From positions 30,773 through 94,772 of the forward strand of contig CAZNDH010000001.1 of NCBI GenBank assembly GCA_964571765.1: a DNA stretch of 64,000 nucleotides. The letters run 5' to 3'. This DNA is from an uncultured Acidimicrobiaceae bacterium (GTDB lineage: Bacteria > Actinomycetota > Acidimicrobiia > Spongiisociales > ZC4RG35). Below, piece by piece: positions 2,197-64,000 of the stretch (position 1 is its first letter; the number at the start of each line of letters is the position of its first letter). Made by a program: the position numbers and the translations under genes. Under the pieces are notes generated by a model. That model was not told where the DNA came from, did not search any database, and was given only the letters and a program-made list of their open reading frames with translations.

Positions 2197-2205
2197 GCCC
2201 GGCCG

Positions 2206-2610: not shown

Positions 2611-2698
2611 TCGCCAGGCCTCGAGCGGTGGGTCCCGGGTTCCGCGGCTGGTGCTACCCCCGGAACGCCGAGTACGGAGGGGCTCTAGTCTCGATCCG

Positions 2699-3343: not shown

Positions 3344-3388
3344 CGGGTTGAGGGAGGCCCGCAGCGCCGGGTCTACCATGGGTCGCTC

Positions 3389-4852: not shown

Positions 4853-6058
4853 CCGCACCGCGGCTGCCCGGTCTGGCTTGCCCGGGCCGACGACCGGGAT
4901 CACCGGAACGCGGAGCCACCCCCTGGGGACTTCGTGAGCCTGAAGCCGACCGCGGGCCCATTCAGCGAGGGCATCGGGGGAGGCGGCTCCGGTGTACAGA
5001 CACCACACCGCCATCCCCCAGTCGGGATCTGGGACGCCGACAACCATCACCTCCCCGGCCATGGGGTGATCGCGGATCACGGTCTCGACCCTGGCCGGAT
5101 CCACGTTCTCTCCCCCGGTGACGATGACCGCGTCGGCCCTTCCCACGACGAGGAGCGCACCCCCGGCGTCCAACTCACCGAGGTCGTTGGTCACAAGCCA
5201 TCGTCCGGGACGGTCCGGCTCATCCAGGTAGCCCGGAGAGACCTGGCCCCCGGCGACGGCGATGCGGCCATCGGGCTCGATCCGCAACTCGACCCCGGGG
5301 AGGGGATGCGCACGCCGACCGGGCCCGGCGTCTGGCCTGCGGGTGGCCACCTGGCCGAAGGTCTCGGTCATCCCATAGCTGGGCAGCGCCGGGATGTGCG
5401 CCTCCCAGGCACGGTCGATGAGCCCGTCGGGGATCGGCCCCCCTCCCACCACCACCCCCCGAAGTCCTTCAAACTGCCCCGGATGGGCCTCCAGGGTCTT
5501 CGACAGCATGGTGGCCACCATCGACACCATCGTCACCTCCCCTCCCATGAGTCGGGCAACCGTCTCCGGGTCGAATTCCCCGGTGAGGTAGACCGAGCCG
5601 CCGGTGAATGCCGAGCGGAGCAGGATCGAGATCCCGGCAACGTGATGCAACGGCAACGAGAGCAGCCAGATGTCGTCCGGGCCGTGCCCGAGATGTGACC
5701 TGGATGCCCGACATGCTGCCTCGATGTTCGACCTGGTCAGCCTTACTCCCCTTGGGGAGCCTCCGGTGCCCGAGGTGAAAACCGTCAGGAGCCAACGGCC
5801 CGATTGGCGAGCCCCCCAATCCTCACCTGATGCCTGGTATCTGATCCCTCGATCAGGGGGAAGCGCCACCACACCGGGTCCGGAAAGGCCGGCGAGAAGG
5901 TCGAAGACCGAACCGGGGGTCAGCGACGGCCGAACCACCATGGTCTCACCAACCACGCGCGCCTCCACCTCGGCGATGGTCTCGCCGTAGCTCCAAACCC
6001 GATCGGCGACAGTCAGGAATGGCGCCATGGGTGGGTGGCGATGCAACCATTCGAGCAT
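4829..6058 (-). CDS. menE: o-succinylbenzoate-CoA ligase (short form)
   Basis: FTSGTGG, YGMTET, GGENVDP AMP-binding motifs; divergent from menB. Confidence 0.8.
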   Translation of the reverse strand: MLEWLHRHPPMAPFLTVADRVWSYGETIAEVEARVVGETMVVRPSLTPGSVFDLLAGLSGPGVVALPPDRGIRYQASGEDWGARQSGRWLLTVFTSGTGGSPRGVRLTRSNIEAACRASRSHLGHGPDDIWLLSLPLHHVAGISILLRSAFTGGSVYLTGEFDPETVARLMGGEVTMVSMVATMLSKTLEAHPGQFEGLRGVVVGGGPIPDGLIDRAWEAHIPALPSYGMTETFGQVATRRPDAGPGRRAHPLPGVELRIEPDGRIAVAGGQVSPGYLDEPDRPGRWLVTNDLGELDAGGALLVVGRADAVIVTGGENVDPARVETVIRDHPMAGEVMVVGVPDPDWGMAVWCLYTGAASPDALAEWARGRLQAHEVPRGWLRVPVIPVVGPGKPDRAAAVRLALDRLG

Positions 6059-6090
6059 GGGCCCGATTGTGACCCTTATCCTGGCGGTTC

Positions 6091-6981
6091 GTGGTATCCG
6101 AGATCTTCGATGGTGAGGCCTGGGACCTGGTCCCCGACTTCGAGCTTACCGACATCACCTATCACCGCGCTCGTGACGCCGGGGTGGTGCGGGTGGCGTT
6201 CGACCGTCCAGAGGCGCGCAACGCCTTTCGCCCGCAGACCGTAGACGAGCTCTACGCAGTGCTCGACCACGCTCGGCAAACCACCGATGTCGGCTGTGTT
6301 CTCCTCACCGGCAACGGGCCCTCACCCAGGGACGGCGGCTGGGCGTTCTCCTCGGGGGGGGATCAGAGGATTAGGGGCAAGGACGGCTACAAGTACGCCG
6401 AAGGTGAGCAAGTCGATCCCGGACGGGTGGGTCGGCTCCACATCCTCGAAGTGCAGCGGCTGATCAGGTTCATGCCCAAGGTGGTCATCGCTGTGGTCCC
6501 TGGGTGGGCGGTGGGAGGGGGCCACAGCCTCCATGTGGTCTGCGACATGACGATCGCTTCGGAAGAGCACGCGGTGTTCAAGCAGACCGATGCCGATGTC
6601 GCCTCATACGACGCCGGTTACGGGTCGGCCTATCTGGCCAGGCAGGTAGGGCAGAAGAAGGCGCGGGAGGTGTTCTTTCTCGGTCGGGACTATTCAGCGA
6701 GGGAGGCCGAGGCGATGGGAATGGTGAACGCGGTAGTCGCCCACACCGAGCTGGAGCGCGTCGCACTCCAGTGGGGCAGGGAGGTGTGCGCCAAGAGCCC
6801 GATGGCGCAGCGGATGCTCAAGTTCGCCTTCAATATGATCGACGACGGGCTGGTCGGACAGCAGATCTTTGCCGGCGAGGCGACGCGACTGGGGTACATG
6901 ACAGACGAGGCCAGGGAAGGTCGCGACTCTTTCCTGGAGAAGCGCCCCCCCGACTTCTCCGACTTCCCCTGGCACTACTGA
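6091..6981 (+). CDS. menB: 1,4-dihydroxy-2-naphthoyl-CoA synthase
   Basis: RNAFRPQTVDEL, FSSGGDQ, GGGHSLHVVCD; actinobacterial type. Confidence 0.96.
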   Translation: MVSEIFDGEAWDLVPDFELTDITYHRARDAGVVRVAFDRPEARNAFRPQTVDELYAVLDHARQTTDVGCVLLTGNGPSPRDGGWAFSSGGDQRIRGKDGYKYAEGEQVDPGRVGRLHILEVQRLIRFMPKVVIAVVPGWAVGGGHSLHVVCDMTIASEEHAVFKQTDADVASYDAGYGSAYLARQVGQKKAREVFFLGRDYSAREAEAMGMVNAVVAHTELERVALQWGREVCAKSPMAQRMLKFAFNMIDDGLVGQQIFAGEATRLGYMTDEAREGRDSFLEKRPPDFSDFPWHY

Positions 6982-53189: not shown

Positions 53190-53983
53190 CCGCCCACTTC
53201 CCCGGGGAGCACGAACCCATAGCGGTTCATCACCTCCCGTCCGCGAGGGCTGCCCACCAGCTCGACGAATTCGACCGCGGCTCCCACTCGGGCGGGGTCT
53301 TCGACGGTCACCACCAGTGCTTGCTCCAGGGGGTTGTGGAGCCCGTCGTCGATCAACTCCCAGGACCCCCGCTCGCCGGCGGCCATCGCCAGGGAGAGGG
53401 CGACAATGGCGACGTCGGCGTCACCGTTCTCCGCCAGCCGCTGGGTGTCGGAGATGTTCTCTCCGAAGACGAGCCTTGCTTCGAGCGTGTCCCAGTTCCC
53501 CGATTCGAGGAGGGCCTCCTTGGCAGCCAACCCGTAAGGCGCGTGCTGGGGATTGGCGATGGCCACGAACCTCACCCCCTGGTCGGAGCCAAGTGCATCG
53601 AGGTCAGTCCACCCATGCCAGAGATCGGTCCGGGCCCAGATGACGATCCGGCCATAGGCGTAGGTTGTCTTCGTCGATGGGTCACCCCGGCCCGAGGCAA
53701 GGACCCGATCGACGAAGTCGAGGTTGGCCGAGGCATAGACATCGACTGGTGCACCTTCGATGATTCGCTGAGCCAACTGGCCAGAAGACCCGAAGTCGAA
53801 GACGACCTCGTGGTCGGTCGTCTCGGTGAAAACCTCACCCAACTCTTCGAAGGCCGGGCGTAGATCGGAAGCGGCCGCCACCAGCAGGGCCTGATCGCCC
53901 ATCAACGGCCCGGAAGCAGGCTGAGAGTCCCGGCACCCGGCCAGGGCCAGACAAACCAGAAACACCACAGAGCCCGATCTCAC
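53186..53983 (-). CDS. modA: molybdate ABC transporter substrate-binding lipoprotein
   Basis: Lipobox LAGC, AAASDL, GSSGQL, APYG, GENI. Confidence 0.92.
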   Translation of the reverse strand: MRSGSVVFLVCLALAGCRDSQPASGPLMGDQALLVAAASDLRPAFEELGEVFTETTDHEVVFDFGSSGQLAQRIIEGAPVDVYASANLDFVDRVLASGRGDPSTKTTYAYGRIVIWARTDLWHGWTDLDALGSDQGVRFVAIANPQHAPYGLAAKEALLESGNWDTLEARLVFGENISDTQRLAENGDADVAIVALSLAMAAGERGSWELIDDGLHNPLEQALVVTVEDPARVGAAVEFVELVGSPRGREVMNRYGFVLPGEVGG

Positions 53984-54966
53984 CCCGTGCTGCTCCCCAG
54001 TTCTTCGAGGTGATACCCGCCGATCTGCTCCAGTCGCCGGCGGAACGCCTCGCCGGTGACCGCCGTCAACATCGCCTCGACACCACGCTCACCGAGCCAA
54101 CGATCATCGACCCAGAGTTCGACCCGATGATGTGCCAGTGGATGGAAGGCGACACCGAGGGCAGCCGACACCGGCTCGATGGTGAGTGCCGGAATGCCGG
54201 CACAGATCCCGTGACGCCCCGCAGATAGGTGTCCCCCCGCTCTCGGTCCAGGCACTTCGCCACCCACTGCCTCGAGGAACGACTGTTGAGCAGCTGCCGA
54301 AGGCTCCCGCTGCACCACCGGAATGCCTCCCGAGACGACCAGGTCCCACCACCCGGAAGTCATGCCGGGAGGCAGGGCCAGGCCGACGCTCCACCCCGTC
54401 AAGCCGAAACGGACGAGACCCGGCGGTGCATCTGGGACCTCCCCCTCGGGGGCGTGAACGACCGCAGCATGGGCCCTGCCTTGGGTCATCGCGTTCACTG
54501 CCGAGGCGGAGGAAGCGACCACGGCCATCGCCCCGATGCCCTCCTGGCGGAGCATCGACTCCAGGGTTTCCAGCCCGGGCTCACACCCCGCCACCACCAC
54601 GCTGGGTCGGCTGATTCCTGACCCGACCACCCGGCCGGACTCTATGGCCCCGTCGGCCGGGCCCCAACCCTCTCCACCGGTGAGGGGCGGCGACGTCACC
54701 ACCTGAACACCGATCATCCCGACCCGTACCGCCTCACCCTCGCCGGGAGGTCCACCGGTGAGCACGTCGACCGGCGAGGTATCCGAAGCGAAAAGTGACT
54801 CGGGGCTGACCCCGAGCGCCCGGGAGAGGGCCAGTGCGGCATCGACCCGGGGAAGGTGACGACCGCTTTCGACTGCACCCACCAACTGCCTACTGACCCC
54901 GGCCAACCCGGCCAGCTCCGCCTGGGTCAACCCGGCTTGCTCCCTAGCAGTCCTCAGTCGACTCAT
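53980..54966 (-). CDS. XRE-HTH regulator with PBP-like molybdate-binding domain
   Basis: GLTQAELAGLAGVSRQ HTH; AGCEP and QRE...A segments; first gene of the mod operon. Confidence 0.75.
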   Translation of the reverse strand: MSRLRTAREQAGLTQAELAGLAGVSRQLVGAVESGRHLPRVDAALALSRALGVSPESLFASDTSPVDVLTGGPPGEGEAVRVGMIGVQVVTSPPLTGGEGWGPADGAIESGRVVGSGISRPSVVVAGCEPGLETLESMLRQEGIGAMAVVASSASAVNAMTQGRAHAAVVHAPEGEVPDAPPGLVRFGLTGWSVGLALPPGMTSGWWDLVVSGGIPVVQREPSAAAQQSFLEAVGGEVPGPRAGGHLSAGRHGICAGIPALTIEPVSAALGVAFHPLAHHRVELWVDDRWLGERGVEAMLTAVTGEAFRRRLEQIGGYHLEELGSSTG

Positions 54967-55018
54967 GCCAGAAAACTAGCATCATCGCTTGAACTCTGGC
55001 CTCTTCACGGCGTCGGGC

Positions 55019-56164
55019 TCAGAGAGTGGTCGCTGACTCCTCTTGGGTGGGAGTCAGGCCCAGTTCCTGGGAGCGCTGTACCCATCGGGCGACGTCGCGG
55101 GGAGTGATGATCCCGAGAATCTGGCCGTCGTCGACCACCAACACCCGATCCTGGTCCTGCTCCCGAAGCCTCTCCATGACCCGGTTCATCGGTGTCGCCG
55201 GCTCAACGGTGCATGCGTCCTCGAGGTCGGTCATCGCGCTCCACACCTGACGGACTCCCCACTGGTCCTTGGGGATCTGGCGCACCGCCCTCAGTGTCAC
55301 CAACCCGGAACGGTCCTCTGAGACCACAGGGAAAGCCGAATGGTCGTAGCGGAGGAAATATTCGTCGACTGCCTGCTCAACGGTGGTATCGAAGGGGATG
55401 CTCACCAGCTCCGGTGTCATCAGATCGGCGGCGGTGACGTCCTCGAGAAAGGACCGGACCACCACGTCCTGGTCGGCGGCACTCGCCGCCTGGAGCAGGA
55501 ACCAACCAATGGCCGCCATCCATAGGCCACCCAGATCGCCCCGGAACACCGAAAATATCCCGATGGCAATGAGGAGCGAGGCGATCACCCGGCCGCCCCG
55601 GGCAGCCCCACGAGTCGCCGAGACGAGATTTCCTCTGACCTTCCACAGGATGGAGCGGAGCACCCGCCCCCCGTCCAGGGGGAATCCGGGCAACAGGTTG
55701 AACACGCCGAGGAGAAGGTTGAGCCACCCCAGGTAGCCGAGAGGGAACAGGACCAACGGGCTGAGCACACCTGATCCCAGTGTCACCACCAGCCAGAAGG
55801 CCGCGGCCAACAGCAAGCTGGTCAGCGGTCCCACCACTGCGATCAGGAACTCATCGCGGGGCTTGCTCGCCTCCATCTTCATCTTGCTCACTCCACCGAA
55901 GAGGAAGAGCGTGATCCCCTCGACCTCCACCCCGAGACGACGGGCCATAACCGAGTGGCTCAGCTCGTGGAGCAGCACCGACCCGAAGAACACCAGGGCG
56001 GTCGCCCCGGCCATCACGATGAGAACACCCTGGTCGAGATCCTCGAAACGCAAGGCAAACTGGAGGTAGAACGACCAGCTGAAGAGAAAGGCGATCACCA
56101 GCCAGGACGGGTCGATGCTGATCTCGATCCCAAAAACCCGGCCGATACGGAGACCTTTGATCAT
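55019..56164 (-). CDS. site-2 (M50) protease with CBS pair
   Basis: HELSH, FNLLPGFPLDGG, two CBS domains. Confidence 0.92.
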   Translation of the reverse strand: MIKGLRIGRVFGIEISIDPSWLVIAFLFSWSFYLQFALRFEDLDQGVLIVMAGATALVFFGSVLLHELSHSVMARRLGVEVEGITLFLFGGVSKMKMEASKPRDEFLIAVVGPLTSLLLAAAFWLVVTLGSGVLSPLVLFPLGYLGWLNLLLGVFNLLPGFPLDGGRVLRSILWKVRGNLVSATRGAARGGRVIASLLIAIGIFSVFRGDLGGLWMAAIGWFLLQAASAADQDVVVRSFLEDVTAADLMTPELVSIPFDTTVEQAVDEYFLRYDHSAFPVVSEDRSGLVTLRAVRQIPKDQWGVRQVWSAMTDLEDACTVEPATPMNRVMERLREQDQDRVLVVDDGQILGIITPRDVARWVQRSQELGLTPTQEESATTL

Positions 56165-56268
56165 GCGAAGGGACCCAGACGGCTCATTCGAGACGAATCT
56201 ATCGGCTGCCGTGGGGTAGGGGTGCGGCTTTGGCGCCGGAGCGGGTCGATCCTTAGCCTTGGCCGGAC

Positions 56269-57402
56269 ATGCGACTTGCCGTCCCAGCCGAGCCGAGGGG
56301 AGAGCGTCGCGTCGCGATCACCCCTCAAGTGGCATTGAGGCTCGTCGAGAGCCGCCACGTTCTCCGGGTGGAGACCGCCGCCGGGTCCGGAGCCGGGTTC
56401 AGTGACGAGCAGTACCGCGATGCCGGAGCCGATGTGACCCCCGACCCCTTTGCTGGGACCGAGGTCGTCCTGGTGGTCGGACCTCCCACCCTCGACCAGG
56501 TCGGTCAGGTGCCAGAAGAGGCCACTCTGATCGGCTTCCTCGACCCTTTTGGCAACCCCGACCTGATCCGACTGCTCACCGACCGGAGGATCACCTCGTT
56601 CGCCATGGAGGCCATCCCCCGTTCTACGGTGGCCCAGGGCATGGACGCCCTCTCCTCGCAGGCCACCGCCGCCGGCTATGCCGCGGTCCTGGCCGCGGCC
56701 GGCGCCTCCCCGAGGATCTTCCCCATGCTCACCACCGCGGCTGGAACCATCCCCCCGGCCAAGGTCCTCGTCCTCGGTGCAGGGGTCGCTGGCCTGCACG
56801 CCATCGCCAACTCCCGGCGTCTGGGAGCGGTGGTGTCCGCCTACGACATCCGGCCCGAAGTCAAGGAGCAGATCGAGAGCCTTGGCGCCCGGTTCATCCC
56901 GGCACCGGTCGACGAGTCGGCAGCCACCGCCTCAGGCTATGCCAAGGAAGTCTCCGACGAGACCCAAAGACGGCAGATGGACGCCCTGGCGCCCCATGTC
57001 GCCGCGGCAGACGTGGTGATAACCACCGCCCAGGTCCCGGGACAGCCCGCCCCTCTCCTCATCTCCCGGGAGATGGTCGAGGCGATGAGCCCCGGATCGG
57101 TGATCGTCGACGTGGCTGCACCCGGAGGAGGCAACTGCGAGATCACCGAGCCGGGACGGACGGTCACTCACAATGGGGTTACCGTCCTCGGCCCGCTCGA
57201 CCTCGCCGGGCGGGTGGCCGTTGACGCCAGCCACATGTATGCCCGAAACGTGGTCGCCTTCCTCGAGCGGTTGACCGACGAGGAAGCCAGGCTCGCCCCG
57301 GATTTCGACGACGAAGTCACCTCCGAGGCCTGCATCACCCGTGAGGGACGGGTGGTGCACCCGGTGGTCCGCCGACTCCACCACCTGGATGAGGAACCGT
57401 GA
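56269..57402 (+). CDS. pntA: NAD(P) transhydrogenase subunit alpha, part 1
   Basis: ERRVA, MDALSSQ, TAAGT, GAGVAG, GGNCE. Confidence 0.92.
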   Translation: MRLAVPAEPRGERRVAITPQVALRLVESRHVLRVETAAGSGAGFSDEQYRDAGADVTPDPFAGTEVVLVVGPPTLDQVGQVPEEATLIGFLDPFGNPDLIRLLTDRRITSFAMEAIPRSTVAQGMDALSSQATAAGYAAVLAAAGASPRIFPMLTTAAGTIPPAKVLVLGAGVAGLHAIANSRRLGAVVSAYDIRPEVKEQIESLGARFIPAPVDESAATASGYAKEVSDETQRRQMDALAPHVAAADVVITTAQVPGQPAPLLISREMVEAMSPGSVIVDVAAPGGGNCEITEPGRTVTHNGVTVLGPLDLAGRVAVDASHMYARNVVAFLERLTDEEARLAPDFDDEVTSEACITREGRVVHPVVRRLHHLDEEP

Positions 57403-57707
57403 GCCCGCTGATCGTGGGGGTCACCGTGTTCGTCCTCGCTGCCTTCGTCGGACTCGAGGTGATCTCCAAGGTGCCCCGGACCCTCCACACCCCGCTGATG
57501 TCGGGGGCCAACGCCATCTCCGGGATCACGGTCATTGGTGCGGTCACCGCAGCCGGCGTGGGAGCGACTCCCCTGGCCCAGGTCCTCGGGTTCCTCGCGG
57601 TGGTCACCGCCACCATCAACGTGGTCGGCGGGTTCCTGGTCACGGATCGGATGCTGGGCATGTTCCGCCGTCCCACTTCGAAGCGTGCAGAAGACGACGA
57701 GGCATGA
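57399..57707 (+). CDS. NAD(P) transhydrogenase subunit alpha, part 2
   Basis: LHTPLMSGANAISG, NVVGGFLVTDRMLGMF. Confidence 0.92.
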   Translation: MSPLIVGVTVFVLAAFVGLEVISKVPRTLHTPLMSGANAISGITVIGAVTAAGVGATPLAQVLGFLAVVTATINVVGGFLVTDRMLGMFRRPTSKRAEDDEA

Positions 57708-59071
57708 CCGAGATCCTCTACCTGGGTTGCGCGGTCGCCTTCATCGTCGGCCTCAAGCGACTCAGCGGCCCCCGCACCGCCCGATCGGGGAACATGATGG
57801 CCGCCACCGGAATGCTGGTGGCCATCGTGGTCACCCTGGTCGATCAGGAGATCGTCGACTGGAGGATCGTCCTCGGTGGCCTGGCCCTGGGAGCGGCCAT
57901 CGGCGCCTGGGCGGCTCTCAGGGTGCAGATGACCGCCATGCCTCAGATGGTCGCACTCCTCAACGGATTCGGTGGCATCGCCTCTGCTCTGGTCGCCGCC
58001 GAGGTTGTGGTGTCGACCGGACTGGTCACGGTGGCCACCGAGACAAGCGTGACCATTCTGGTTTCCACGTTGATCGGAGCGGTCACCTTCACCGGGAGCC
58101 TGGTGGCCTTCGCCAAGCTCCAGGGTCTGGTAGGAGGGAGCCCTTTCCTCTACCCCGGTCAGAGGGCGATCAACGCCCTTCTCGCCCTCACCGTGTTCGG
58201 ACTGGCGATCTGGGCGCTGGTGGCCGGGTCGACCTCCGGCTACTGGCTGATGGCGGCGGCGGCCCTGGTCGTCGGGATCCTCGGCGTTGTTCCCATCGGT
58301 GGTGCCGACATGCCGGTGGTGATCTCCTTGCTCAACTCGTTCTCCGGGCTGGCTGCATCGGCAGCGGGCTTCGTGATCTCCAACAACGCCCTGATCATCG
58401 GGGGCGCCCTGGTCGGGGCGGCCGGGCTGATCCTCACCATCCAGATGACCGAGGCCATGAACCGCTCGCTGGCCAACGTGCTCTTCGCCGGCTTCGGAGC
58501 AGTGGGCCCGGGTGGCCCGACAGCCGGACTCTCCGGCCGACCGGTCAATGACGCCGACGCCGACGACGTGGCGATCGCCCTGGGGTACGCCGATCGGGTG
58601 ATGATCGTCCCCGGGTACGGACTGGCGGTGGCCCAGGCCCAACATGCCGCCCGCGACCTGGCCACCGCTCTCGAGGAGCGGGGGGCCGTCGTGCACTTCG
58701 CCATCCACCCGGTGGCGGGGAGGATGCCTGGGCACATGAACGTGCTACTCGCCGAGGCCGACGTCCCCTATGAGCAGTTGCTCGATCTGGAACAGGCCGA
58801 CCCCCAGATGCCCCAGACCGACGCGGTGCTCATCCTCGGGGCCAACGACGTGGTCAACCCGTCGGCCCGTGACGACCCGGCATCGCCCATATACGGGATG
58901 CCGATCCTCAACGCCGACCGGGCCGGGCGGGTCATCGTGGTCAAGCGGAGCCTCTCCCCCGGCTTCGCCGGCATCGACAACCCCCTCTTCTACAACGACA
59001 ACACCCTGATGTTCTTTGCCGATGCCAAGGAGGCCTTGGAGCGGATCCTGATCGCTCTCCAGGAGATGTGA
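57704..59071 (+). CDS. pntB: NAD(P) transhydrogenase subunit beta
   Basis: MTAMPQMVA, IGGADMPVVIS, HPVAGRMPGHMNVLLAEA. Confidence 0.95.
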   Translation: MTEILYLGCAVAFIVGLKRLSGPRTARSGNMMAATGMLVAIVVTLVDQEIVDWRIVLGGLALGAAIGAWAALRVQMTAMPQMVALLNGFGGIASALVAAEVVVSTGLVTVATETSVTILVSTLIGAVTFTGSLVAFAKLQGLVGGSPFLYPGQRAINALLALTVFGLAIWALVAGSTSGYWLMAAAALVVGILGVVPIGGADMPVVISLLNSFSGLAASAAGFVISNNALIIGGALVGAAGLILTIQMTEAMNRSLANVLFAGFGAVGPGGPTAGLSGRPVNDADADDVAIALGYADRVMIVPGYGLAVAQAQHAARDLATALEERGAVVHFAIHPVAGRMPGHMNVLLAEADVPYEQLLDLEQADPQMPQTDAVLILGANDVVNPSARDDPASPIYGMPILNADRAGRVIVVKRSLSPGFAGIDNPLFYNDNTLMFFADAKEALERILIALQEM

Positions 59072-59073
59072 GG

Positions 59074-59730
59074 TCAGCCGATCGATCTGCGCCGCAGCAT
59101 CGCGTTGTTCTTCCAGTTGCCGGCGTTGTGCCATAGCCGCTTCCGATCGACCTTGACCAGCTCCTGGGTGGGTCGCTCGTCGGAGCCGAGTTGGGTGGCC
59201 AGCGCCTTGAGGGTGTGCCGCCACATCCAGTCCTCACCCTTTCCCATCCCGAAGACGAACCCGATATCCCAGATCGGGTCGCTTGCCCGGATCAGGAGCT
59301 GCACTTCGGCGATCGACCCGTTGTCGGTGGGTGCCGCCGAGAAGGTGATCCACCCGGCGAAGGGGTGGCCTTCCGGGGTCATGAAGCTGAATGAGGTGTC
59401 GTCGGCGTAGATCACCACCACCCCGGTCGAGAGCACCTGCATCGAGTCGATCGATCCGACCTCCCCCGGTTTGATCCCGGCGACGGGTGCGTTGAACTTG
59501 CTTATCGAGGGCCAGAAGTCGCCGTAGTTGGCCTTCCAGGTGGAGATCACCGCCGCCGGGTCGTGTCCGGGGATCCCGATGCGATATGTCTTCTGCCACA
59601 ACGCTCCGAAGCCCTGCTGGGGTCCGTTGAGCCTCCGTCCTTCCAGATGCCCCGCCGCCCCGGTTATGGCCTCGATGGGCTGAGCCCACGCCCTCCCATC
59701 GTCTTCGCTGTTGTTTTCGCCGTTCGACAT
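59074..59730 (-). CDS. hypothetical protein (possibly DUF1990/START-like fold)
   Basis: QGFGALWQKTY and FMTPEGHPFAGWITFSA; last gene of the STAS operon; fold assignment is a guess. Confidence 0.6.
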   Translation of the reverse strand: MSNGENNSEDDGRAWAQPIEAITGAAGHLEGRRLNGPQQGFGALWQKTYRIGIPGHDPAAVISTWKANYGDFWPSISKFNAPVAGIKPGEVGSIDSMQVLSTGVVVIYADDTSFSFMTPEGHPFAGWITFSAAPTDNGSIAEVQLLIRASDPIWDIGFVFGMGKGEDWMWRHTLKALATQLGSDERPTQELVKVDRKRLWHNAGNWKNNAMLRRRSIG

Positions 59731-59764
59731 GGCGTCATTGGACGACCCGGCCGCTACTGCAGCG

Positions 59765-60937
59765 TTACGCACCCGTTCCGGTATCGCCGGCCAGCCACAC
59801 CGTCACCGACTCGGGGGAGAACACTTCCGACACCATGGACTCGGCGCGGGCGGTCACCTCCTCCAGATCCAGAGACCCCCGCAACTCCTCGGCGACCCGG
59901 GCCACCACCACCGAGGCGTCATAACGCGACCTGAAAAACCTTCGGTCTACCACCCGCTGCACCCGCCGCACCAGAGGCAGGAAAGCCAACGCCACCACCA
60001 GGGTCGACACCGCCACCGGCAGATCACCCTCCACCGGGAACAGCTCGCGCAGACCGACCACCAGACCGGCGTAGGCCAACCCCAACACGCCCACAACCAA
60101 CAGGTAGGTCACGGTCCGGGACATCAGCCGGTCGATCTCGAACAGCCGGTATCGGAGCACCGCGGCCACTATCGAAAGAGGGATGATGCTGAAGGTGAGC
60201 AGGAAGAGGTTCTGCGCTACCGGCCGGTCGCCGAGCACATACCTCCCCACCGGGGTGAACGACAGGAGAACCAGACCGGCCACGATGCCCAGAGCCAGGG
60301 CCACCCATTTGATCTGCTGCCTCTCCACCACGGTGGCATGGCGAATACGCGCCACCACAGATGCAACGGCACCCACGATCCCCACTGCGAGCGTGGGATT
60401 GACGATCCACCATGTCGCCGATTCGTCGCCCAACACTTGCTCCCAAGGCAGGGTGAGGGTTTCGACGCTGGCCCCGATCAAGCCACCGACCATCCCCACT
60501 CCGGCGACGACTGCCACCCACCTCCACACCGGCGTGGGAGGTCGTCCGGTGGGGAACAGCAGAGGGAGGATCACCGCCAGCAGGAACAGCACCGGAACCC
60601 AGGCGAACCCGATCCACACCGCCACGAGCCGGCCCAATACACCGAGTTCGACACCCTCGACCTGGCGGGCATCGAGGACCAGGGCGATCCAGATGTTGCT
60701 CAGGCACAGACCGATTCCGAGCAGGACCCAGCCGACACGGTTGCCCGTCCGCCACACCACGAACCCTCCGGTCGCGGCAAACACCAAGCCGATCGCTGTA
60801 GACACCAGCACTTGCGACTGAACTGGCAGATCGGTCGTGGTGAGGAAACCGGAGAACGGCCAGATGGCGGCCACCAGCGAAGTCGCGCTGAGCGCCACAC
60901 CACCCGCAGAAGCCACCCGGGCTACTCGGCCAGCCAT
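59765..60937 (-). CDS. multi-pass membrane sensor-like protein, paralog A
   Basis: Many TM segments, GNRVGW, LLFPTG, RQQIKW, RYRLFEID, DRRFFRSRYDA. Confidence 0.8.
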   Translation of the reverse strand: MAGRVARVASAGGVALSATSLVAAIWPFSGFLTTTDLPVQSQVLVSTAIGLVFAATGGFVVWRTGNRVGWVLLGIGLCLSNIWIALVLDARQVEGVELGVLGRLVAVWIGFAWVPVLFLLAVILPLLFPTGRPPTPVWRWVAVVAGVGMVGGLIGASVETLTLPWEQVLGDESATWWIVNPTLAVGIVGAVASVVARIRHATVVERQQIKWVALALGIVAGLVLLSFTPVGRYVLGDRPVAQNLFLLTFSIIPLSIVAAVLRYRLFEIDRLMSRTVTYLLVVGVLGLAYAGLVVGLRELFPVEGDLPVAVSTLVVALAFLPLVRRVQRVVDRRFFRSRYDASVVVARVAEELRGSLDLEEVTARAESMVSEVFSPESVTVWLAGDTGTGA

Positions 60938-61313
60938 ACCGTCACCGACTCGGGGGAGAACACCTCGGACACCACCGTCTCGGCCCGGGCGGTCACATCC
61001 TCGAGATCCAACGAACCCCGCAACTCCTCGGCGACTCGGGCCACCACCACCGAGGCGTCATAACGCGACCTGAAAAACCTTCGGTCTACCACCCGCTGCA
61101 CCCGCCGCACCAGAGGCAGGAAAGCCAACGCCACCACCAGGGTCGACACCGCCACCGGCAGATCACCCTCCACCGGGAACAGCTCGCGCAGACCGACCAC
61201 CAGACCGGCGTAGGCCAACCCCAACACGCCCACAACCAACAGGTAGGTCACGGTCCGGGACATCAGCCGGTCGATCTCGAACAGCCGGTATCGGAGCACC
61301 GCGGCCACTATCG
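59801..61313. repeat. direct repeat of the 3' coding module of paralogs A and B (59801-60174 and 60940-61313)
   Basis: 59898-60174 is identical to 61037-61313 (277 bp, offset 1139); a diverged third copy lies at about 62107-62460. Confidence 0.92.
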
Positions 61314-62082
61314 CCGTCGGGAGAGCCCAGAAACCGGCTATTACAACTACTCCGAGGAGCGCGTCACTGACCGTCATCCCCACACCCGTCAGGGGAGAAG
61401 AGATGACCGCGAAGAGGGCGATCAGGAAGAGCGCTCCGGCGATGAAGACTTTTATCTGCGCCCGCTCAACTCCGGTCGACCGACGGAAGCGAGTCACGAG
61501 CACTACCACTCCGACCACTCCACCGACAACCACCACGGCGAACAGGGCACTGACAAGCCCGACGATCCAGACAGGCCCGACACCCAAGGGGTTGTCCCGT
61601 AGAGGGAGCCTGTCGATCCCAGCGCTGACATCGAGCGAGCCGGGGCGAATCAGAAGGAACAGCGGCATCACGATCAGCGTCATCACCGTCACCCACCTCA
61701 GGGTCAAGCGCGGCCAACCGGGAAGCGTCTCACCGGTGGGGAAGACATAGAGCAGTGCCACCATCCCCCAGAAGGTCACCACCACACTTGCCGACACCAG
61801 GAGTTCGAGATAGGGGCTCCACCAGGCATCGAACCAGGTCATCGCCATCCATCCGCCCAGAAACGAGAATCCCGCCGCGGCGCCGATCGCCAGGAGCACC
61901 CTCCCTACCCGATTCCCCGGGCGCTGAATGAGGATGAGGGAGGCGGCCAGGGGGAATGGCATCAAACCCAATGGCCACACCCAGTCATCGGGGTTGGTCG
62001 ACGCCGGGATGATCACCTCGAGGAGGATGGCCCCGGTGGCGACGGCGGCCCACCCGAGATGGAGGACCACACGACGGCTCAT
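60922..62082 (-). CDS. multi-pass membrane sensor-like protein, paralog B
   Basis: Same motif order as paralog A, divergent N-terminal two-thirds. Confidence 0.8.
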   Translation of the reverse strand: MSRRVVLHLGWAAVATGAILLEVIIPASTNPDDWVWPLGLMPFPLAASLILIQRPGNRVGRVLLAIGAAAGFSFLGGWMAMTWFDAWWSPYLELLVSASVVVTFWGMVALLYVFPTGETLPGWPRLTLRWVTVMTLIVMPLFLLIRPGSLDVSAGIDRLPLRDNPLGVGPVWIVGLVSALFAVVVVGGVVGVVVLVTRFRRSTGVERAQIKVFIAGALFLIALFAVISSPLTGVGMTVSDALLGVVVIAGFWALPTAIVAAVLRYRLFEIDRLMSRTVTYLLVVGVLGLAYAGLVVGLRELFPVEGDLPVAVSTLVVALAFLPLVRRVQRVVDRRFFRSRYDASVVVARVAEELRGSLDLEDVTARAETVVSEVFSPESVTVWLAE

Positions 62083-63281
62083 CGGCCGTGCTCGACGACC
62101 CAGATGGCCAGGGTCTCGGGGGAGAACACCTCGGACACCACCGTCTTGGCTCGGGCGGTCACCTCATCCAGATCCAACGAACCCCGCAACTCCTCGGCGA
62201 CCCTGGCCACCACCAAAGCCGCGTCATAACGCGACCTGAAGAACCGCCGGTCCACCACCCGCTGCACCCGGCGCACCAGTGGCAGGAAGGCCAGCGCCAC
62301 CACCAGGGTCGACACCGCCACCGGTAGATCCCCCTCCACCGGGAACAACTCACGCAGACCGACCACCAGACCGGCATAAGCCAACGCCAAGAGACCCATC
62401 ACCACCAGGTATGTCACCGTGCGGGAGACCAAACGGTCGATTTCGAACAGGCGGTAGCGCAGGACAGCGATTCCGATCGCCACCGGGATGACCCAGATGG
62501 AGAGGGCGAAGGCCAGATCGACCAGCGGGTCGAGTGCATCGCCTGACGCCGGGCCCATGGCGACCGCCGAGAAGGTGGCGACGAACAAGGCGACGGCGGA
62601 CAGCAACCACTTCAGCTGCTGGCGCTCGGCGGCGCCAGCCCGCCGGTATCGGACCGCCATCCCGACCACACCTGCGATGGCCAGGATGAGCAGGCCCGCG
62701 GTCCAGATGGCGTTGAAGACCACGCCGAAGAACCCCTCGGGTATGAACCCGATCGGGTTGGGCACGGTCCAGGACCCGTGCCCCAGCTCCCGGGCGAGGG
62801 CGCCGGTGACGAGGAGAAAGACGATCATCGAGAGCTCGAGCCGGACCAGCCAATTCCATCGATCGGACAAGAGCCGCCCCGTGGGGAAAACCAGTAAGAG
62901 GTGGAATAGGGGGAAGATGAGCCCCATCCAGCTGATGCTGGCTGCCCACAGCGTGAGGAGCACCAGGAACCCGACTTCAGGTGGTGGGCCGTCGCCGGCG
63001 CCGATGACCATGGCGAACAAGGGATCCAACACCGTGATGAGTGCCGGGAGGAAGAGCAGCCAGCCGATGACGTTGCGTGGTTGTCTGGAGACGATGATCG
63101 CCGCCACCAGGGCGAACGGCAAGGGGAGCAAAGCCCAGCTGCCCAGCGCCATGGCTTCGGCGACCGTGCGCGGCTGTGCCGGATCGACGATCCATTGGAA
63201 GATCACGCCAACGACCACCAGCCCTGCGGCCAGCCACACCAGTCGACCTGACAGGGGTGTTGGGTGACCTTTCCCCATCAT
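62079..63281 (-). CDS. multi-pass membrane sensor-like protein, paralog C
   Basis: PRNVIGW, LVFPTG, RQQLKW, RYRLFEID; stop overlaps the paralog B start (ATGA). Confidence 0.8.
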   Translation of the reverse strand: MMGKGHPTPLSGRLVWLAAGLVVVGVIFQWIVDPAQPRTVAEAMALGSWALLPLPFALVAAIIVSRQPRNVIGWLLFLPALITVLDPLFAMVIGAGDGPPPEVGFLVLLTLWAASISWMGLIFPLFHLLLVFPTGRLLSDRWNWLVRLELSMIVFLLVTGALARELGHGSWTVPNPIGFIPEGFFGVVFNAIWTAGLLILAIAGVVGMAVRYRRAGAAERQQLKWLLSAVALFVATFSAVAMGPASGDALDPLVDLAFALSIWVIPVAIGIAVLRYRLFEIDRLVSRTVTYLVVMGLLALAYAGLVVGLRELFPVEGDLPVAVSTLVVALAFLPLVRRVQRVVDRRFFRSRYDAALVVARVAEELRGSLDLDEVTARAKTVVSEVFSPETLAIWVVEHGR

Positions 63282-63361
63282 CGGATTCCCCCGGAGGCGG
63301 CACGGCCCCAAACGCGGATCCCTGCCTCACCAGTGGTAGGAAGAGGATCCAGCACCTCGGG

Positions 63362-63685
63362 TCACTCAGTGAGTGCCTGGGCGGCGTCGGCGTAGACGGG
63401 GATCGCTTCGTCGAGCCTGGTTAGCGAGAAGATCTCCCGGTAGTGGTCGTCGAGCCCGCATGCCACCAGCCGGACACCGGCGCGCTGGGCCCGGACCAGA
63501 GTGGTCACCAGCAGACCGATCCCGGTGCTGTTCATGTAGCCGAGTCTCGAGAAGTCGAGGACGACAGTCCCGTGGTCCTTCGCCGCCTCGAAGGCGGCCC
63601 CGAGGGCCTCCTCGGCGGCGGCGGTGAGGTCGCCCGACAGGGAGATGACTCCCCCATCGACTTCGGTGATCAGGTCTGTGCTCAT
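63362..63685 (-). CDS. STAS-domain anti-sigma factor antagonist
   Basis: LDFSRLGYMNSTGIGLLV, GLDDHYREIFSLTRLD. Confidence 0.9.
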   Translation of the reverse strand: MSTDLITEVDGGVISLSGDLTAAAEEALGAAFEAAKDHGTVVLDFSRLGYMNSTGIGLLVTTLVRAQRAGVRLVACGLDDHYREIFSLTRLDEAIPVYADAAQALTE

Positions 63686-64000
63686 TCCCTTCCTCCACTC
63701 GCTACGGCTAGAGCCGCTTCTTGATCGTCGGTGACGGCGATGAACTGGTCGAGATGGGTTATCTCGAACACATGCCGGTAGTGGTCGTCCAGCCCTATGG
63801 CGGCCACCGCCGTCCCCCCGCCGCCGGCCGCACTGACCAGGCGGACCAACAGCGCCAGACCGCTCGACGAGATGAACCCTGTCCCGGCGAAGTCGAGGAC
63901 CACCCCTTCAACGCCGGCCAGAGAGCCCTCGAGCTTGGAGAGGGGTGCATCGGCATCGCGGTCCAGGTCGCCCGCGAGACGAGCCAGCAGCACCGGGCCT
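63682..64000 (-). CDS. STAS-domain anti-sigma factor antagonist (5' end probably outside the window)
   Basis: LAGDLD, LDFAGTGFISSSGLALLV, IFE-like VFEITHLD. Confidence 0.85.
   Translation of the reverse strand, partial: GPVLLARLAGDLDRDADAPLSKLEGSLAGVEGVVLDFAGTGFISSSGLALLVRLVSAAGGGGTAVAAIGLDDHYRHVFEITHLDQFIAVTDDQEAALAVASGGRE

What the first reader, a model, noticed from the sequence alone, without database searches (positions are those of the whole stretch)
59074..64000. Putative partner-switching system: two STAS proteins, three kinase-less membrane receptors and an unknown effector
Seen: co-oriented, tightly packed genes STAS-STAS-C-B-A-hypothetical, and both STAS proteins keep the phosphorylatable Ser motif (NSTG, SSSG). 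The three membrane proteins resemble the input region of actinobacterial sensor kinases or cyclases but stop right after a short cytoplasmic segment that looks like the start of a GAF domain, with no catalytic domain. Inference: interchangeable receptors with different input regions and a common docking tail that signal in trans to a shared phosphatase or kinase, perhaps encoded just beyond the window. This is a candidate undescribed signalling system.
Basis: partly seen in the sequence, partly recalled or inferred. Interest (0 to 1): 0.75.

Follow-up and report, generated by a model that had tools for sequence, protein, structure and literature searches.

The report
Membrane sensors sharing a split GAF
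Three membrane proteins with no enzyme part each end in the first piece of a GAF sensor domain, and the rest of that domain starts the phosphatase/kinase gene just past the window, so several sensors probably plug into one phosphorylation switch, a wiring I did not find in print.

Summary
On the minus strand lie two STAS genes, three about 390-aa polytopic membrane genes with no catalytic domain, and a 232-aa gene.

It is a SpoIIE/PP2C plus HATPase_c_2 protein ("PP2CK") whose GAF domain lacks its first third.

Each membrane protein stops right after the piece that is missing. Single-chain relatives join the two parts without gap or overlap, one of them in the same gene neighbourhood. A complex model scored 0.64 against 0.11 for the best control.

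The cluster recurs in Actinomycetota and Chloroflexota. PP2CK and STAS lie upstream of the 232-aa gene in 61 of 62 loci. At least one membrane gene lies within 10 kb in 37 of 41.

Two further conserved parts emerged: a divergent BTAD-AAA-TPR regulator, and a CGTAACG-N4-CGGAACG box upstream of PP2CK. The 232-aa protein is DUF1990-like with a Bet v 1/START fold.

Binding, signal direction and output are inferred. Nothing was tested at the bench.

This scan has reported the same split-GAF reading on other genomes. My four paper searches on this wiring found no description.

The parts
59074..59772 (-). 232-aa DUF1990-like protein with a Bet v 1/START (SRPBCC) fold; last gene of the operon
   Evidence: No Pfam or NCBIfam hit. 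The nearest ESM Atlas clusters score 0.97 and 0.95, and 13% and 10% of their members carry DUF1990. The model has pLDDT 66; Foldseek gives Bet v 1/PR-10/PYL/SRPBCC chains at E about 1e-5 and TMt 0.5-0.72. In 61 of 62 loci with at least 3 kb upstream it sits downstream of PP2CK and STAS.
59765..60937 (-). Membrane sensor A (390 aa; about 10 TM helices; cytoplasmic tail 324-390 = first piece of a GAF)
   Evidence: The model has pLDDT 80 and is all-helical, and residues 377-390 fall below pLDDT 50 when the protein is modelled alone. No PDB fold match at E<=0.001.
60922..62082 (-). Membrane sensor B (386 aa)
   Evidence: The tail differs from that of A at 15 of 372 nt.
62079..63311 (-). Membrane sensor C (410 aa from TTG; 400 aa by the collection's gene call)
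59788..60087 (-). Conserved tail-coding repeat, copy in A (further copies at 60927-61226 in B and 62093-62392 in C)
   Evidence: 3 copies of 300 nt, 96% and 86% identical to the reference copy. A and B are identical over 59898-60174.
63362..63685 (-). STAS2 (107 aa, NSTG motif)
   Evidence: STAS_2 at 1.1e-14. TIGR00377 scores 54.2 bits against a cut-off of 53.45. The Ser is invariant.
63682..64000 (-). STAS1 (115 aa, SSSG motif), cut by the window end. The gene runs on to extrapolated coordinate 64029 (= L006:1455-1802).

Three parts of the system lie wholly beyond the window and cannot be listed as rows of their own:
- PP2CK: partial GAF, SpoIIE/PP2C and HATPase_c_2; L006:1799-3343, minus strand; extrapolated 64026-65570. 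Its true start is probably one of the ATGs a few codons downstream.
- The CGTAACGGTGACGTGACG box: L006:3351-3368, minus strand; extrapolated 65578-65595.
- The divergent BTAD-AAA_16-TPR regulator: 854 aa; L006:3426-5990, plus strand; extrapolated 65653-68217.
   Evidence: STAS1: STAS_2 at 1.8e-07. The start codon, Shine-Dalgarno motif and ATGA overlap are shown.

PP2CK: domains. Catalytic residues are invariant in 13 orthologues. It has the only such N-terminus in the genome.

Box: it is the only strict match in 2.17 Mb, where 0.13 are expected. It lies upstream of PP2CK in 39 of 64 loci by regex, and variants are visible in 22 of the other 25.

Regulator. Homologues lie on the strand opposite to PP2CK in 51 of 80 loci, with one partial match on the same strand, and in 34 of 41 loci of at least 20 kb.

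Best explanation
This is a multi-input partner-switching module whose sensor domain is split between genes.

Shown here:
- A seven-gene minus-strand operon: PP2CK, STAS1, STAS2, membrane C, B, A, and a DUF1990-like gene.
- A divergent BTAD-AAA-TPR regulator gene next to it.
- PP2CK carries an intact-looking PP2C phosphatase and an RsbW-type Ser kinase. Its N-terminal GAF lacks the first third.
- A, B and C are ten-helix membrane proteins. They are very different in the first eight helices, nearly identical in the last two helices and the 67-residue cytoplasmic tail, and they stop just after the strand that PP2CK lacks.

Inferred:
- Each tail (two helices and strand beta1) completes the GAF of PP2CK in trans. 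Several receptors would then dock on, or compete for, one enzyme and hold it at the membrane.
- GAF-type input domains drive PPM phosphatases through a dimeric helical linker. A change in the receptor would therefore shift the balance between phosphatase and kinase activity toward the conserved Ser of the two STAS proteins.
- The unphosphorylated STAS proteins would then bind an output partner. This is not a sigma factor encoded nearby. Candidates are the DUF1990-like protein and the BTAD-AAA-TPR regulator.
- That regulator probably activates the operon through the heptamer-repeat box.
For: Domains: SpoIIE at 1.3e-44, HATPase_c_2 at 7e-20, and GAF_3 at 5.1e-08 matching only profile positions 49-127 of 129 at residues 32-116. 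Catalytic residues are invariant in 13 orthologues.

Fused relatives: in an 815-aa single-chain membrane-GAF-SpoIIE relative (L050), sensor A aligns up to residue 380 with its residue 472, and PP2CK aligns from residue 32 with its residue 474. A 931-aa single-chain form that also has HATPase_c_2 (L093) sits in the same neighbourhood with STAS, the DUF1990-like gene and the BTAD regulator.

Synteny: in 80 loci anchored only on the 232-aa protein, PP2CK and STAS lie upstream in 61 of 62 loci with at least 3 kb upstream, and 59 of those have two STAS genes. PP2CK is present in 41 of 41 loci with at least 9 kb on both sides, and 37 of those 41 have 1-7 membrane genes. Of 152 membrane-protein C-termini, 144 end within 30 aa of a stop codon. 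The taxa include Acidimicrobiia, Thermoleophilia, Chloroflexia and Ktedonobacteria.

Complex model: score 0.64, best of 3 controls 0.11. That mark was reached by 116 of 157 solved complexes and 2 of 215 mismatched pairs. The runs agree in at least 65% of contacts and the partner's pLDDT is at least 57. Tail strand 375-384 pairs antiparallel with PP2CK 83-89. The tail helices pack on PP2CK 101-123.

The tail strand is below pLDDT 50 when sensor A is modelled alone.

The predicted contact 87/379 covaries. With Asn at PP2CK 87, 80 of 101 tails have Ser or Thr at 379. With Tyr, Phe or His at 87, 41 of 58 have Gly. The aromatic state changes at least twice on the tree of the catalytic domain, once in Actinomycetota and once in Chloroflexota.

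Tails are homogenised within genomes while inputs are not. PP2CK has the only such partial GAF in this genome.

The general rule that N-terminal GAF, PAS or REC domains drive PPM phosphatases through a dimeric helical linker comes from PMC12143880 (passages read).
Against: No binding, phosphorylation or expression data exist. No RNA run holds the stretch.

The complex pass may reflect likeness to solved intact GAF domains, as the tool warns for halves of a split gene. My own alignments were used, so its calibration holds only roughly.

Pfam recognises only the C-terminal part of the GAF even in the fused relatives. That the tail is 'the first third of a GAF' therefore rests on the model geometry and on the alignment to GAF-bearing kinases.

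The covariation has only 2 independent switches, and the sign test has no power (median p = 1).

4 of 41 well-flanked loci show no membrane gene within 10 kb.

G000's PP2CK sits on a long branch (1.34), so its own copy is atypical.

The output step is a guess. No sigma-70 gene lies on contig C1.
Confidence: 0.6

Rival explanations
1. The membrane proteins are linked to the cluster but do not complete the PP2CK GAF. Their tail would be a dimerisation or signalling-helix remnant. They would act on another partner (STAS, the BTAD-AAA-TPR regulator or the DUF1990-like protein), or serve only as membrane scaffolds. PP2CK would work with a self-sufficient short GAF.
For: Pfam sees no GAF in the tails and only a partial GAF even in fused forms. 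4 of 41 loci have PP2CK without a nearby membrane gene. Structure models tend to reassemble the halves of a known fold (caveat printed).
Against: The junction in fused relatives is seamless. Nearly all family members stop within a few residues after the same strand. Position 379 of the tail tracks position 87 of PP2CK. The tail strand is unstructured when modelled alone.
Confidence: 0.25
2. A, B and C are decaying remnants of histidine kinases or membrane phosphatases, truncated genes under relaxed selection with no function of their own.
For: Full-length paralogues with kinase domains exist in the same genome.
Against: 2223 relatives score E<=1e-3, and the best 120 are all 225-427 aa. 144 of 152 ends lie within 30 aa of a stop. 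Silent changes exceed non-silent ones in the tails: 9 against 4, 33 against 18 and 29 against 16. The genes show translational-coupling overlaps. Arrays are conserved across two phyla.
Confidence: 0.03
3. The triplet with near-identical tails is an assembly artefact of a metagenome bin, for example one gene mis-assembled three times.
For: Contigs of public runs break inside the repeated tails, and one tail differs at 11 letters from the bin.
Against: The three unique N-terminal parts are each covered at similar depth in runs of two studies (12.6-14.5 and 12.6-16.2). They are only about 22% identical to one another. Tandem arrays of 2-10 copies occur in many other genomes, including long-read assemblies.
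Confidence: 0.02

Closest known systems
Single-chain membrane-GAF-SpoIIE(-HATPase_c_2) phosphatases (uncharacterised; e.g. L093:6726-9521, 931 aa; L050:793-3240, 815 aa; L051:936-3467, 843 aa)
   Same: They have the same membrane region, tail, GAF remainder, PP2C domain and (in L093) kinase domain. L093 lies in the same neighbourhood with STAS, the DUF1990-like gene and the BTAD regulator.
   Different: They are one polypeptide with one sensor per enzyme. Here the chain is cut after GAF strand beta1, and the sensor half is multiplied: 3 copies here and up to about 10 elsewhere.
Mycobacterium tuberculosis Rv1364c, Streptomyces coelicolor OsaC and Vibrio fischeri SypE/SypA: PP2C phosphatase and RsbW-type kinase in one protein acting on a STAS domain
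   Same: A phosphatase and a GHKL Ser kinase are fused in one protein and act on a STAS Ser. An N-terminal PAS, GAF or REC domain provides input. Sources: Rv1364c, passage in PMC7693655; OsaC and Rv1364c, passages in PMC12143880; SypE, abstracts only.
   Different: Those proteins have complete cytoplasmic input domains in the same chain. Rv1364c also carries its STAS in the same chain. None has a set of separate membrane receptors. The domain order of SypE is recalled, not checked here.
Bacillus subtilis stressosome (RsbRA-RD paralogues with RsbS and RsbT feeding RsbU/V/W)
   Same: The logic is the same: several paralogues with variable N-terminal sensing parts and a conserved C-terminal docking part feed one partner-switching phosphatase. 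This comparison is recalled knowledge; the stressosome is only cited in PMC12143880.
   Different: The docking part there is a whole STAS domain in a large cytoplasmic complex, and activation goes through the RsbT kinase. Here the docking part is a fragment of a GAF on integral membrane proteins. Not a member.
SARP/AfsR-type regulators and their heptamer-repeat boxes
   Same: The neighbouring regulator has BTAD, AAA_16 and TPR domains. The conserved box has two 7-mers with a 4-nt spacer (an 11-bp unit) about 9-10 nt upstream of a TAGAAN-like -10 element. This matches the layout described for SARPs in PMC10972967 section 8 (passages read).
   Different: The N-terminal winged-helix domain is only weakly detected (Trans_reg_C E=0.035, below cut-off). 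No binding was tested. No antibiotic gene cluster is present.
Plant PYR/PYL/RCAR receptors that inhibit PP2C phosphatases
   Same: The 232-aa protein models as a Bet v 1/START fold. PYL1, PYL2 and PYL3, including their PP2C complexes, are among the Foldseek hits. The gene is encoded with a PP2C.
   Different: The match is at fold level only (12-18% identity, TMq about 0.4), and the fold is very common. No evidence of ligand binding or PP2C binding. An analogy, not membership.

Membership tests
Partner-switching system (RsbU/V/W, SpoIIE/AA/AB type) | Single-domain STAS protein with the phosphorylatable Ser | tested here: met
   STAS and STAS_2 hits. The Ser of the NS[TGS]G motif is invariant in 19 of 19 sequences.
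Partner-switching system (RsbU/V/W, SpoIIE/AA/AB type) | PP2C/PPM phosphatase with metal-binding Asp residues | tested here: met
   SpoIIE at 1.3e-44. GGDFYD, GDVTDKG, SDG and EDD are invariant in 13 orthologues. Naming these residues as metal ligands is recalled knowledge.
Partner-switching system (RsbU/V/W, SpoIIE/AA/AB type) | RsbW/SpoIIAB-type GHKL Ser kinase | tested here: met
   HATPase_c_2 at 7e-20. The E..NA.EHGN and RGWG.FL motifs are invariant.
Partner-switching system (RsbU/V/W, SpoIIE/AA/AB type) | A sigma factor (or other target) held by the kinase and released by unphosphorylated STAS | tested here: inconclusive
   None of the genome's 22 Sigma70_r2 matches lies on contig C1. No sigma domain was found in the neighbouring ORFs scanned. 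The target could be encoded elsewhere.
GAF domain | A complete GAF fold in one chain | tested here: not met
   PP2CK matches only GAF_3 profile positions 49-127 of 129. The tails give no GAF hit. The full fold appears only in the two-chain model.
GAF domain | The tail supplies the N-terminal helices and strand beta1 of the same fold | tested here: inconclusive
   Supporting: the alignment to GAF-bearing kinases, the seamless fused forms and the modelled strand pairing. No solved structure matched this part by sequence.
Two-component sensor histidine kinase | HisKA dimerisation/phosphoacceptor domain and HATPase_c | tested here: not met
   No such domain in A, B or C. The paralogues on C22 have both.
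HisKA_7TM (PF16927) membrane input region | Match to the Pfam model above its cut-off | tested here: not met
   4 of 36 family members give weak hits, best E 4.1e-4, and none of A, B or C does. 1 of the best 120 relatives carries PF16927.
DUF1990 (PF09348) / SRPBCC fold | Match to the Pfam model; Bet v 1-like fold | tested here: inconclusive
   No Pfam hit at E<=1. In the nearest Atlas clusters 10-13% of members carry DUF1990. The fold matches Bet v 1/SRPBCC chains at E about 1e-5 from a model of pLDDT 66.
SARP (BTAD) transcription activators | OmpR-type winged helix plus BTAD domain; binding to heptamer direct repeats | tested here: inconclusive
   BTAD at 1.3e-17. Trans_reg_C only at E=0.035. 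A repeat box of the right layout is conserved. Binding cannot be tested with these tools.

The most novel reading that the evidence does not exclude
Bacteria of at least two phyla may wire many membrane receptors to one phosphatase/kinase by fold completion. Each receptor would carry a detachable first third of a GAF domain that inserts its strand into the incomplete GAF of the enzyme. Receptors could then be exchanged, multiplied and mixed (possibly as heterodimers) without touching the enzyme. The same module would feed two STAS proteins, a START-fold protein that may act on the PP2C as plant PYL receptors do, and an AfsR-like STAND regulator that closes a transcriptional loop on the operon.
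Probability: 0.4. Interest if true: 0.85.

Novelty: new variant of a known kind. Interest (0 to 1): 0.72.

Why it matters
Partner-switching modules are among the main stress and development switches of bacteria. How membrane signals reach them is known for only a few.

A sensor domain split between genes, with the sensor half amplified into arrays of very different receptors, would be a simple way to build a many-to-one signalling hub.

It would also give meaning to a family of more than two thousand 'hypothetical' membrane proteins.

It makes a clear, testable prediction: one strand and two helices should be enough to dock. It also offers a natural template for engineered plug-in receptors.

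Cultured carriers exist: Blastococcus saxobsidens DSM 44509 (L105) and Ktedonospora formicarum SOSP1-1 (L134).

Tried and rejected
- Expression: no RNA holder is listed for the stretch. This says nothing about expression.
- Gene order from public contigs: Logan contigs break in the repeated tails, so the order of A, B and C could not be checked independently.
- Fold of the membrane region: Foldseek against the PDB gave no match at E<=0.001, only generic seven-helix receptors at TMq 0.2-0.35.
- Sequence search of solved structures with the GAF region of the fused relative: this gave only the C-terminal GAF half (8w26_A, E 0.0015), so the cut site could not be mapped on a solved GAF.
- First tree attempt: a motif-based cut dropped 29 of 57 rows. 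I repeated it with alignment columns.
- Phylogeny-aware test of covariation: only 2 independent pairs, so no statistical power.
- Second PP2CK-like partial GAF in the genome: none found; the next hit has E 0.14.
- My gene caller (GC3 at least 0.72, greedy choice) failed in L042, where a spurious 1080-aa frame hides PP2CK and STAS. That locus was not used for alignments of those genes.
- Rejected reading, recombination cassettes for switching the sensor on the enzyme gene: PP2CK holds no copy of the tail sequence, and all copies are direct repeats.
- Rejected reading, the box as a sigma-factor promoter: the second heptamer resembles a GGAAC -35 element, but the spacing to the -10-like TAGAAN (9-10 nt) fits neither a housekeeping nor an ECF promoter. 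The promoter spacings are recalled.
- Paper searches that found no description: 'split GAF domain' gave 0 papers. Partner-switching/SpoIIE/HATPase/STAS/Actinobacteria gave 3 papers, none on this. Gene fission/GAF domain/sensor/complementation gave 10 listed, none on this by title or abstract. HisKA_7TM gave 2 census papers. DUF1990 gave 3 papers, one on the chloroplast protein Oep23. Only listings and abstracts were seen for these.

Full report
**What is in the window**

One search lists six co-oriented minus-strand ORFs between 59074 and 64000:
- a STAS gene cut by the window end (63682-63999)
- a second STAS gene (63362-63685)
- three genes of 410, 386 and 390 aa (C 62079-63311, B 60922-62082, A 59765-60937)
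- a 232-aa gene (59074-59772)

Neighbouring genes overlap by 4, 4, 16 and 8 bases. The one gap, of 50 bases, lies between STAS2 and C. Downstream, on the other strand, the pntAA/pntAB/pntB transhydrogenase genes converge on the cluster.

Pfam gives STAS and STAS_2 for the two small proteins. It gives nothing for the other four at E<=1, and NCBIfam adds nothing meaningful.

**Beyond the window**

The window is C1:30773-94772 of a 2.17-Mb, 79-contig assembly that is 90% complete. I fetched C1:93000-108000 as L006.

STAS1 starts at an ATG that overlaps the stop codon of the upstream gene (ATGA) and follows an AAGGAGG motif.

That upstream gene (L006:1799-3343, up to 514 aa) has three Pfam matches:
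- SpoIIE/PP2C, 1.3e-44, residues 183-364
- HATPase_c_2, 7e-20, residues 384-508
- GAF_3, 5.1e-08, covering only profile positions 49-127 of 129 at residues 32-116

I call this protein PP2CK.

Divergently, 82 bases further on, lies an 854-aa BTAD-AAA_16-TPR regulator.

**The membrane proteins**

A, B and C have about ten hydrophobic helices. The model of A has pLDDT 80.

The genome holds five relatives. Three are A, B and C. The other two lie in tandem on contig C22 and are full-length kinases of 682 and 697 aa, with GAF, HisKA_3 and HATPase_c, followed by a response-regulator cyclase.

In the alignment, A, B and C run parallel to these kinases through the last two helices and a cytoplasmic stretch ('..VDRRF.RSRYDA....'). 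They stop right after the '..VWL' strand, where the kinases continue into the rest of their GAF domain.

The last 300 nt are 96% (A/B) and 86% (A/C) identical. The first 255 residues are about 22% identical. Codon differences in the 124-codon tail are mostly silent: 9 against 4 for A/B, 33 against 18 for A/C, and 29 against 16 for B/C.

**A real family, not truncations**

A search of the 5.8-billion-protein collection was limited to lengths of 214-683 aa and to the 8000 candidates sharing most words. It gave 2223 proteins at E<=1e-3. The best 120 are all 225-427 aa. 119 have no Pfam domain and one has HisKA_7TM.

Scanning 36 family members gave weak HisKA_7TM hits in 4.

Foldseek found no solved fold at E<=0.001 for the model of A.

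**Conserved neighbourhood among close relatives**

Among 41 genomes (G000 plus 40 relatives), 22 have a match to A at E<=1e-10. The short forms mostly stand in tandem arrays. Examples: about ten in G030:C3, eight in G002:C47, and five each in G013:C2 and G017:C39.

SpoIIE matches in open frames of about 520-570 aa lie beside these arrays on the same contigs. So do relatives of the 232-aa protein.

The tallies include two unpublished genomes, G027 and G038. Their rows G027:C117 and G038:C203 show the same co-location. No other claim rests on them.

I fetched 17 stretches and called genes with a simple heuristic of my own. BLAST against the seven G000 proteins showed the pattern [membrane x n] - PP2CK - STAS - STAS - [membrane x n] - 232-aa gene in G001, G005, G008, G013, G017, G030 and G037. 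Parts of it appeared in G002, G006, G014, G022 and G023. The caller failed in L042.

**The split**

The same BLAST found single-chain relatives. In L050 (G008:C31, 815 aa), sensor A aligns up to its residue 380 with residue 472, and PP2CK aligns from its residue 32 with residue 474. In L051 (843 aa), sensor A residue 387 meets residue 506, and PP2CK residue 55 meets residue 526. Both have SpoIIE and only a C-terminal GAF match in Pfam.

The two G000 proteins thus correspond, without overlap or gap, to one fused protein cut just after the first GAF strand.

In 13 PP2CK orthologues conservation begins at about residue 31, after a variable basic N-terminus. PP2CK has the only N-terminus of this kind in G000; the next hit has E 0.14.

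**Complex model**

I folded PP2CK residues 1-140 (alignment of 13 rows) with sensor A residues 322-390. The sensor alignment held 36 rows, which I chose as the full-length membrane ORFs, leaving out fragments and over-long frames.

Score 0.64, best of 3 controls 0.11. That mark was reached by 116 of 157 solved complexes and 2 of 215 mismatched pairs. The runs agree in at least 65% of contacts and the partner's pLDDT is at least 57.

The tail strand 375-384 pairs antiparallel with PP2CK 83-89. The tail helices (348-369) lie on the PP2CK helix 101-123. This is the arrangement of an intact GAF; the GAF topology is recalled.

The tool warns that halves of a split gene can pass by likeness to solved structures. 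That applies here. The result shows that the pieces are compatible with one fold, not that they bind.

Modelled alone, sensor A has its last residues 377-390 below pLDDT 50.

**Wider survey anchored on an independent gene**

585 stretches in GTDB species genomes encode a relative, and the best 80 were kept. They come from bins labelled Acidimicrobiia, Thermoleophilia, Gaiellales, Chloroflexia, Ktedonobacterales and Limnocylindria, and from Blastococcus saxobsidens DSM 44509 and Ktedonospora formicarum SOSP1-1.

I built profiles from my alignments and scored all stop-to-stop frames. The counts are:
- Of 62 loci with at least 3 kb upstream, 61 have PP2CK and at least one STAS, and 59 have two.
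- Of 41 loci with at least 9 kb on both sides, 41 have PP2CK and 37 have 1-7 membrane genes.
- Of 152 matches to the C-terminal end of the membrane family, 144 stop within 30 aa.

Two of the eight exceptions, L093 and L097, are fused. L093:6726-9521 is a 931-aa membrane-GAF-SpoIIE-HATPase_c_2 protein. It is followed by one STAS gene and the 232-aa homologue, with a BTAD-AAA-TPR gene nearby.

The closest relatives of the G000 232-aa gene (L055, L056) share the G000 order, with membrane genes directly upstream of it.

**Tails against inputs**

Across the 36 aligned members, the cytoplasmic tail is 67% identical within a genome and 49% between genomes. The input region is 23% within and 24% between.

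This fits either gene conversion or selection for one shared partner. The two cannot be separated here.

**Covariation**

In 61 loci that have both proteins, position 87 of PP2CK tracks position 379 of the tails. The model puts these two residues in contact.
- With Asn at 87: 80 of 101 tails have Ser or Thr, 5 have Gly, 9 have Ala and 7 have another residue.
- With Tyr, Phe or His at 87: 41 of 58 have Gly, 9 have Ala, 6 have Ser or Thr and 2 have another residue.

I built a tree from the catalytic part only, using 59 of the 61 loci; rows with fewer than 200 filled columns were dropped. On it the aromatic state changes at least twice: one clade of 12 rows that is mainly Acidimicrobiia, and one Chloroflexota clade of 8.

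With only 2 independent pairs the sign test has no power (median p = 1). This is a consistent hint, not a demonstration.

**The switch itself**

PP2CK keeps the motifs GGDFYD, GDVTDKG, SDG and EDD, and the kinase motifs E..NA.EHGN and RGWG.FL, invariant in 13 orthologues. Their roles are recalled.

The STAS Ser is invariant in 19 of 19 sequences. The two STAS genes form two conserved types.

Proteins that join a PP2C and an RsbW-type kinase and act on a STAS domain are known: Rv1364c (PMC7693655, passage read), OsaC (PMC12143880, passages read) and SypE/SypA (abstracts only).

PMC12143880 argues that PAS, GAF, REC and HAMP inputs drive PPM phosphatases through a dimeric helical linker. PP2CK has such a helix between its GAF remainder and the phosphatase domain (residues about 117-150). 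From this I infer that completing the GAF sets the linker, and with it the balance of phosphatase and kinase activity.

**Output**

No sigma-70 gene lies on contig C1; the genome's 22 matches are all elsewhere. A classical dCache-PP2C, STAS and sigma set lies on C13. Two conserved companions are candidates for the output.

The first is the 232-aa protein. It has no Pfam hit. The nearest Atlas clusters have DUF1990 on 10-13% of their members. The model (pLDDT 66) has a Bet v 1/START fold, and plant PYL receptors are among the hits. This is a fold-level analogy only.

The second is the BTAD-AAA_16-TPR regulator. Homologues are present in 52 of 80 loci and in 34 of 41 loci of at least 20 kb. They lie on the strand opposite to PP2CK in 51 of the 52; in L134 a partial match lies on the same strand. 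In G037, G014 and G002 a cyclase-AAA_16-TPR protein takes its place.

**A conserved box**

The stretch between the regulator and PP2CK holds CGTAACG-N4-CGGAACG. About 9-10 nt downstream comes a TAGAAN-like hexamer.

A regex finds the box upstream of PP2CK in 39 of 64 loci. In the print-out of the other 25, a variant with the same first heptamer is visible in 22. None is visible in L105. In L093 and L097 the stretch examined lies inside the fused gene.

The regex also matches 46 times elsewhere in those 1.12 Mb on both strands, so it is not unique to this position.

In G000 the strict form occurs once in 2.17 Mb, upstream of PP2CK, where 0.13 are expected. A second copy in inverted orientation faces the regulator gene; this is my reading of the sequence printed.

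Two heptamers with a 4-nt spacer that overlap the -35 position are what SARPs are reported to bind (PMC10972967 section 8, passages read). The regulator therefore probably drives the operon. No binding was tested, and its winged-helix domain is only weakly detected.

**Assembly check**

Eight DNA runs from three studies hold at least half of the sampled words. I laid contigs from four runs of four studies.

In the two best runs (studies P1 and P2) the unique parts of A, B and C are covered at 12.6-16.2. The contigs break in the repeated tails.

The contig that runs from the 232-aa gene into the A tail has 11 other letters at 59913-59984. These match neither B nor C. They change 9 codons silently and one non-silently.

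The genes are real. The exact A tail, and hence the 277-nt perfect A/B identity, is uncertain.

**Earlier notes of this scan**

Look-ups then showed that the scan has reported the same split-GAF reading on other genomes, in 108 findings. These are unchecked AI notes and do not count as support.

New here, as far as those few lines show:
- the survey anchored on the DUF1990-like gene
- the BTAD regulator and its box
- the 87/379 covariation
- the rearranged gene order of this lineage

**Verdict**

The core is a known kind of system, a partner-switching module with a fused phosphatase/kinase.

The input wiring is not described in the papers I could search. It consists of a GAF domain split between genes, with the sensor half amplified.

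Docking, signal direction and output remain to be shown.

Noticed in passing
L006:3351-3368 (extrapolated window 65578-65595), and upstream of PP2CK in L057-L134: A conserved CGTAACG-N4-CGGAACG direct-repeat box lies about 9-10 nt upstream of a TAGAAN-like -10 element, across Actinomycetota and Chloroflexota. In G000 it is the only strict match in the genome, and an inverted second copy faces the divergent regulator gene.
   Followed up: partly
L007 (G000:C22) 1354-3402, 3399-5492, 5489-6793, all minus strand: Two tandem full-length paralogues (membrane-GAF-HisKA_3-HATPase_c) are followed by a response-regulator adenylate/guanylate cyclase. This is the unsplit, two-component version of the same membrane input family in the same genome.
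   Followed up: partly
window 59913-59984: Public contigs from two studies carry 11 other letters in the tail of gene A. They match neither B nor C and change 9 codons silently and 1 non-silently. The bin may have borrowed B's tail for A, or a second strain is present.
   Followed up: partly
L039:8703-9338 (G013) and L043:3178-3627 (G037): Extra Polyketide_cyc2 (SRPBCC) genes sit between the membrane array and PP2CK. This is a second START-like protein in some clusters, besides the DUF1990-like one.
   Followed up: no
L054:5140-5895 (G002:C47): A cupredoxin/plastocyanin-like gene and a 162-aa gene with no family are inserted in the middle of an eight-copy membrane-sensor array.
   Followed up: no
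L043:7384-9000, L047:6573-10223, L053:6-2807: In G037, G014 and G002 the neighbouring STAND regulator has a Guanylate_cyc domain in place of BTAD (cyclase-AAA_16-TPR). The output end of the neighbourhood seems to be exchangeable too.
   Followed up: no
L093:5257-6729: A PspC-domain membrane protein (490 aa) lies directly upstream of the fused membrane-GAF-PP2C-kinase gene.
   Followed up: no
window 53980-59071: Ordinary neighbours: an HTH_3 plus PBP_like regulator (53980-54966, minus), a Peptidase_M50 protein with two CBS domains (55019-56164, minus), and the transhydrogenase genes pntAA, pntAB and pntB (56269-59071, plus), which converge on the cluster.
   Followed up: yes
G000:C13:35910-42662: A separate, classical-looking set lies on another contig: a dCache-SpoIIE phosphatase (839 aa), a STAS gene (C13:41426) and a sigma-70 family gene (C13:42456).
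   Followed up: no
tree: G000's PP2CK sits on a very long branch (1.34, against a median of 0.13). Its STAS1, its tails and its gene order are also atypical, as if the whole module had diverged together in this lineage.
   Followed up: no
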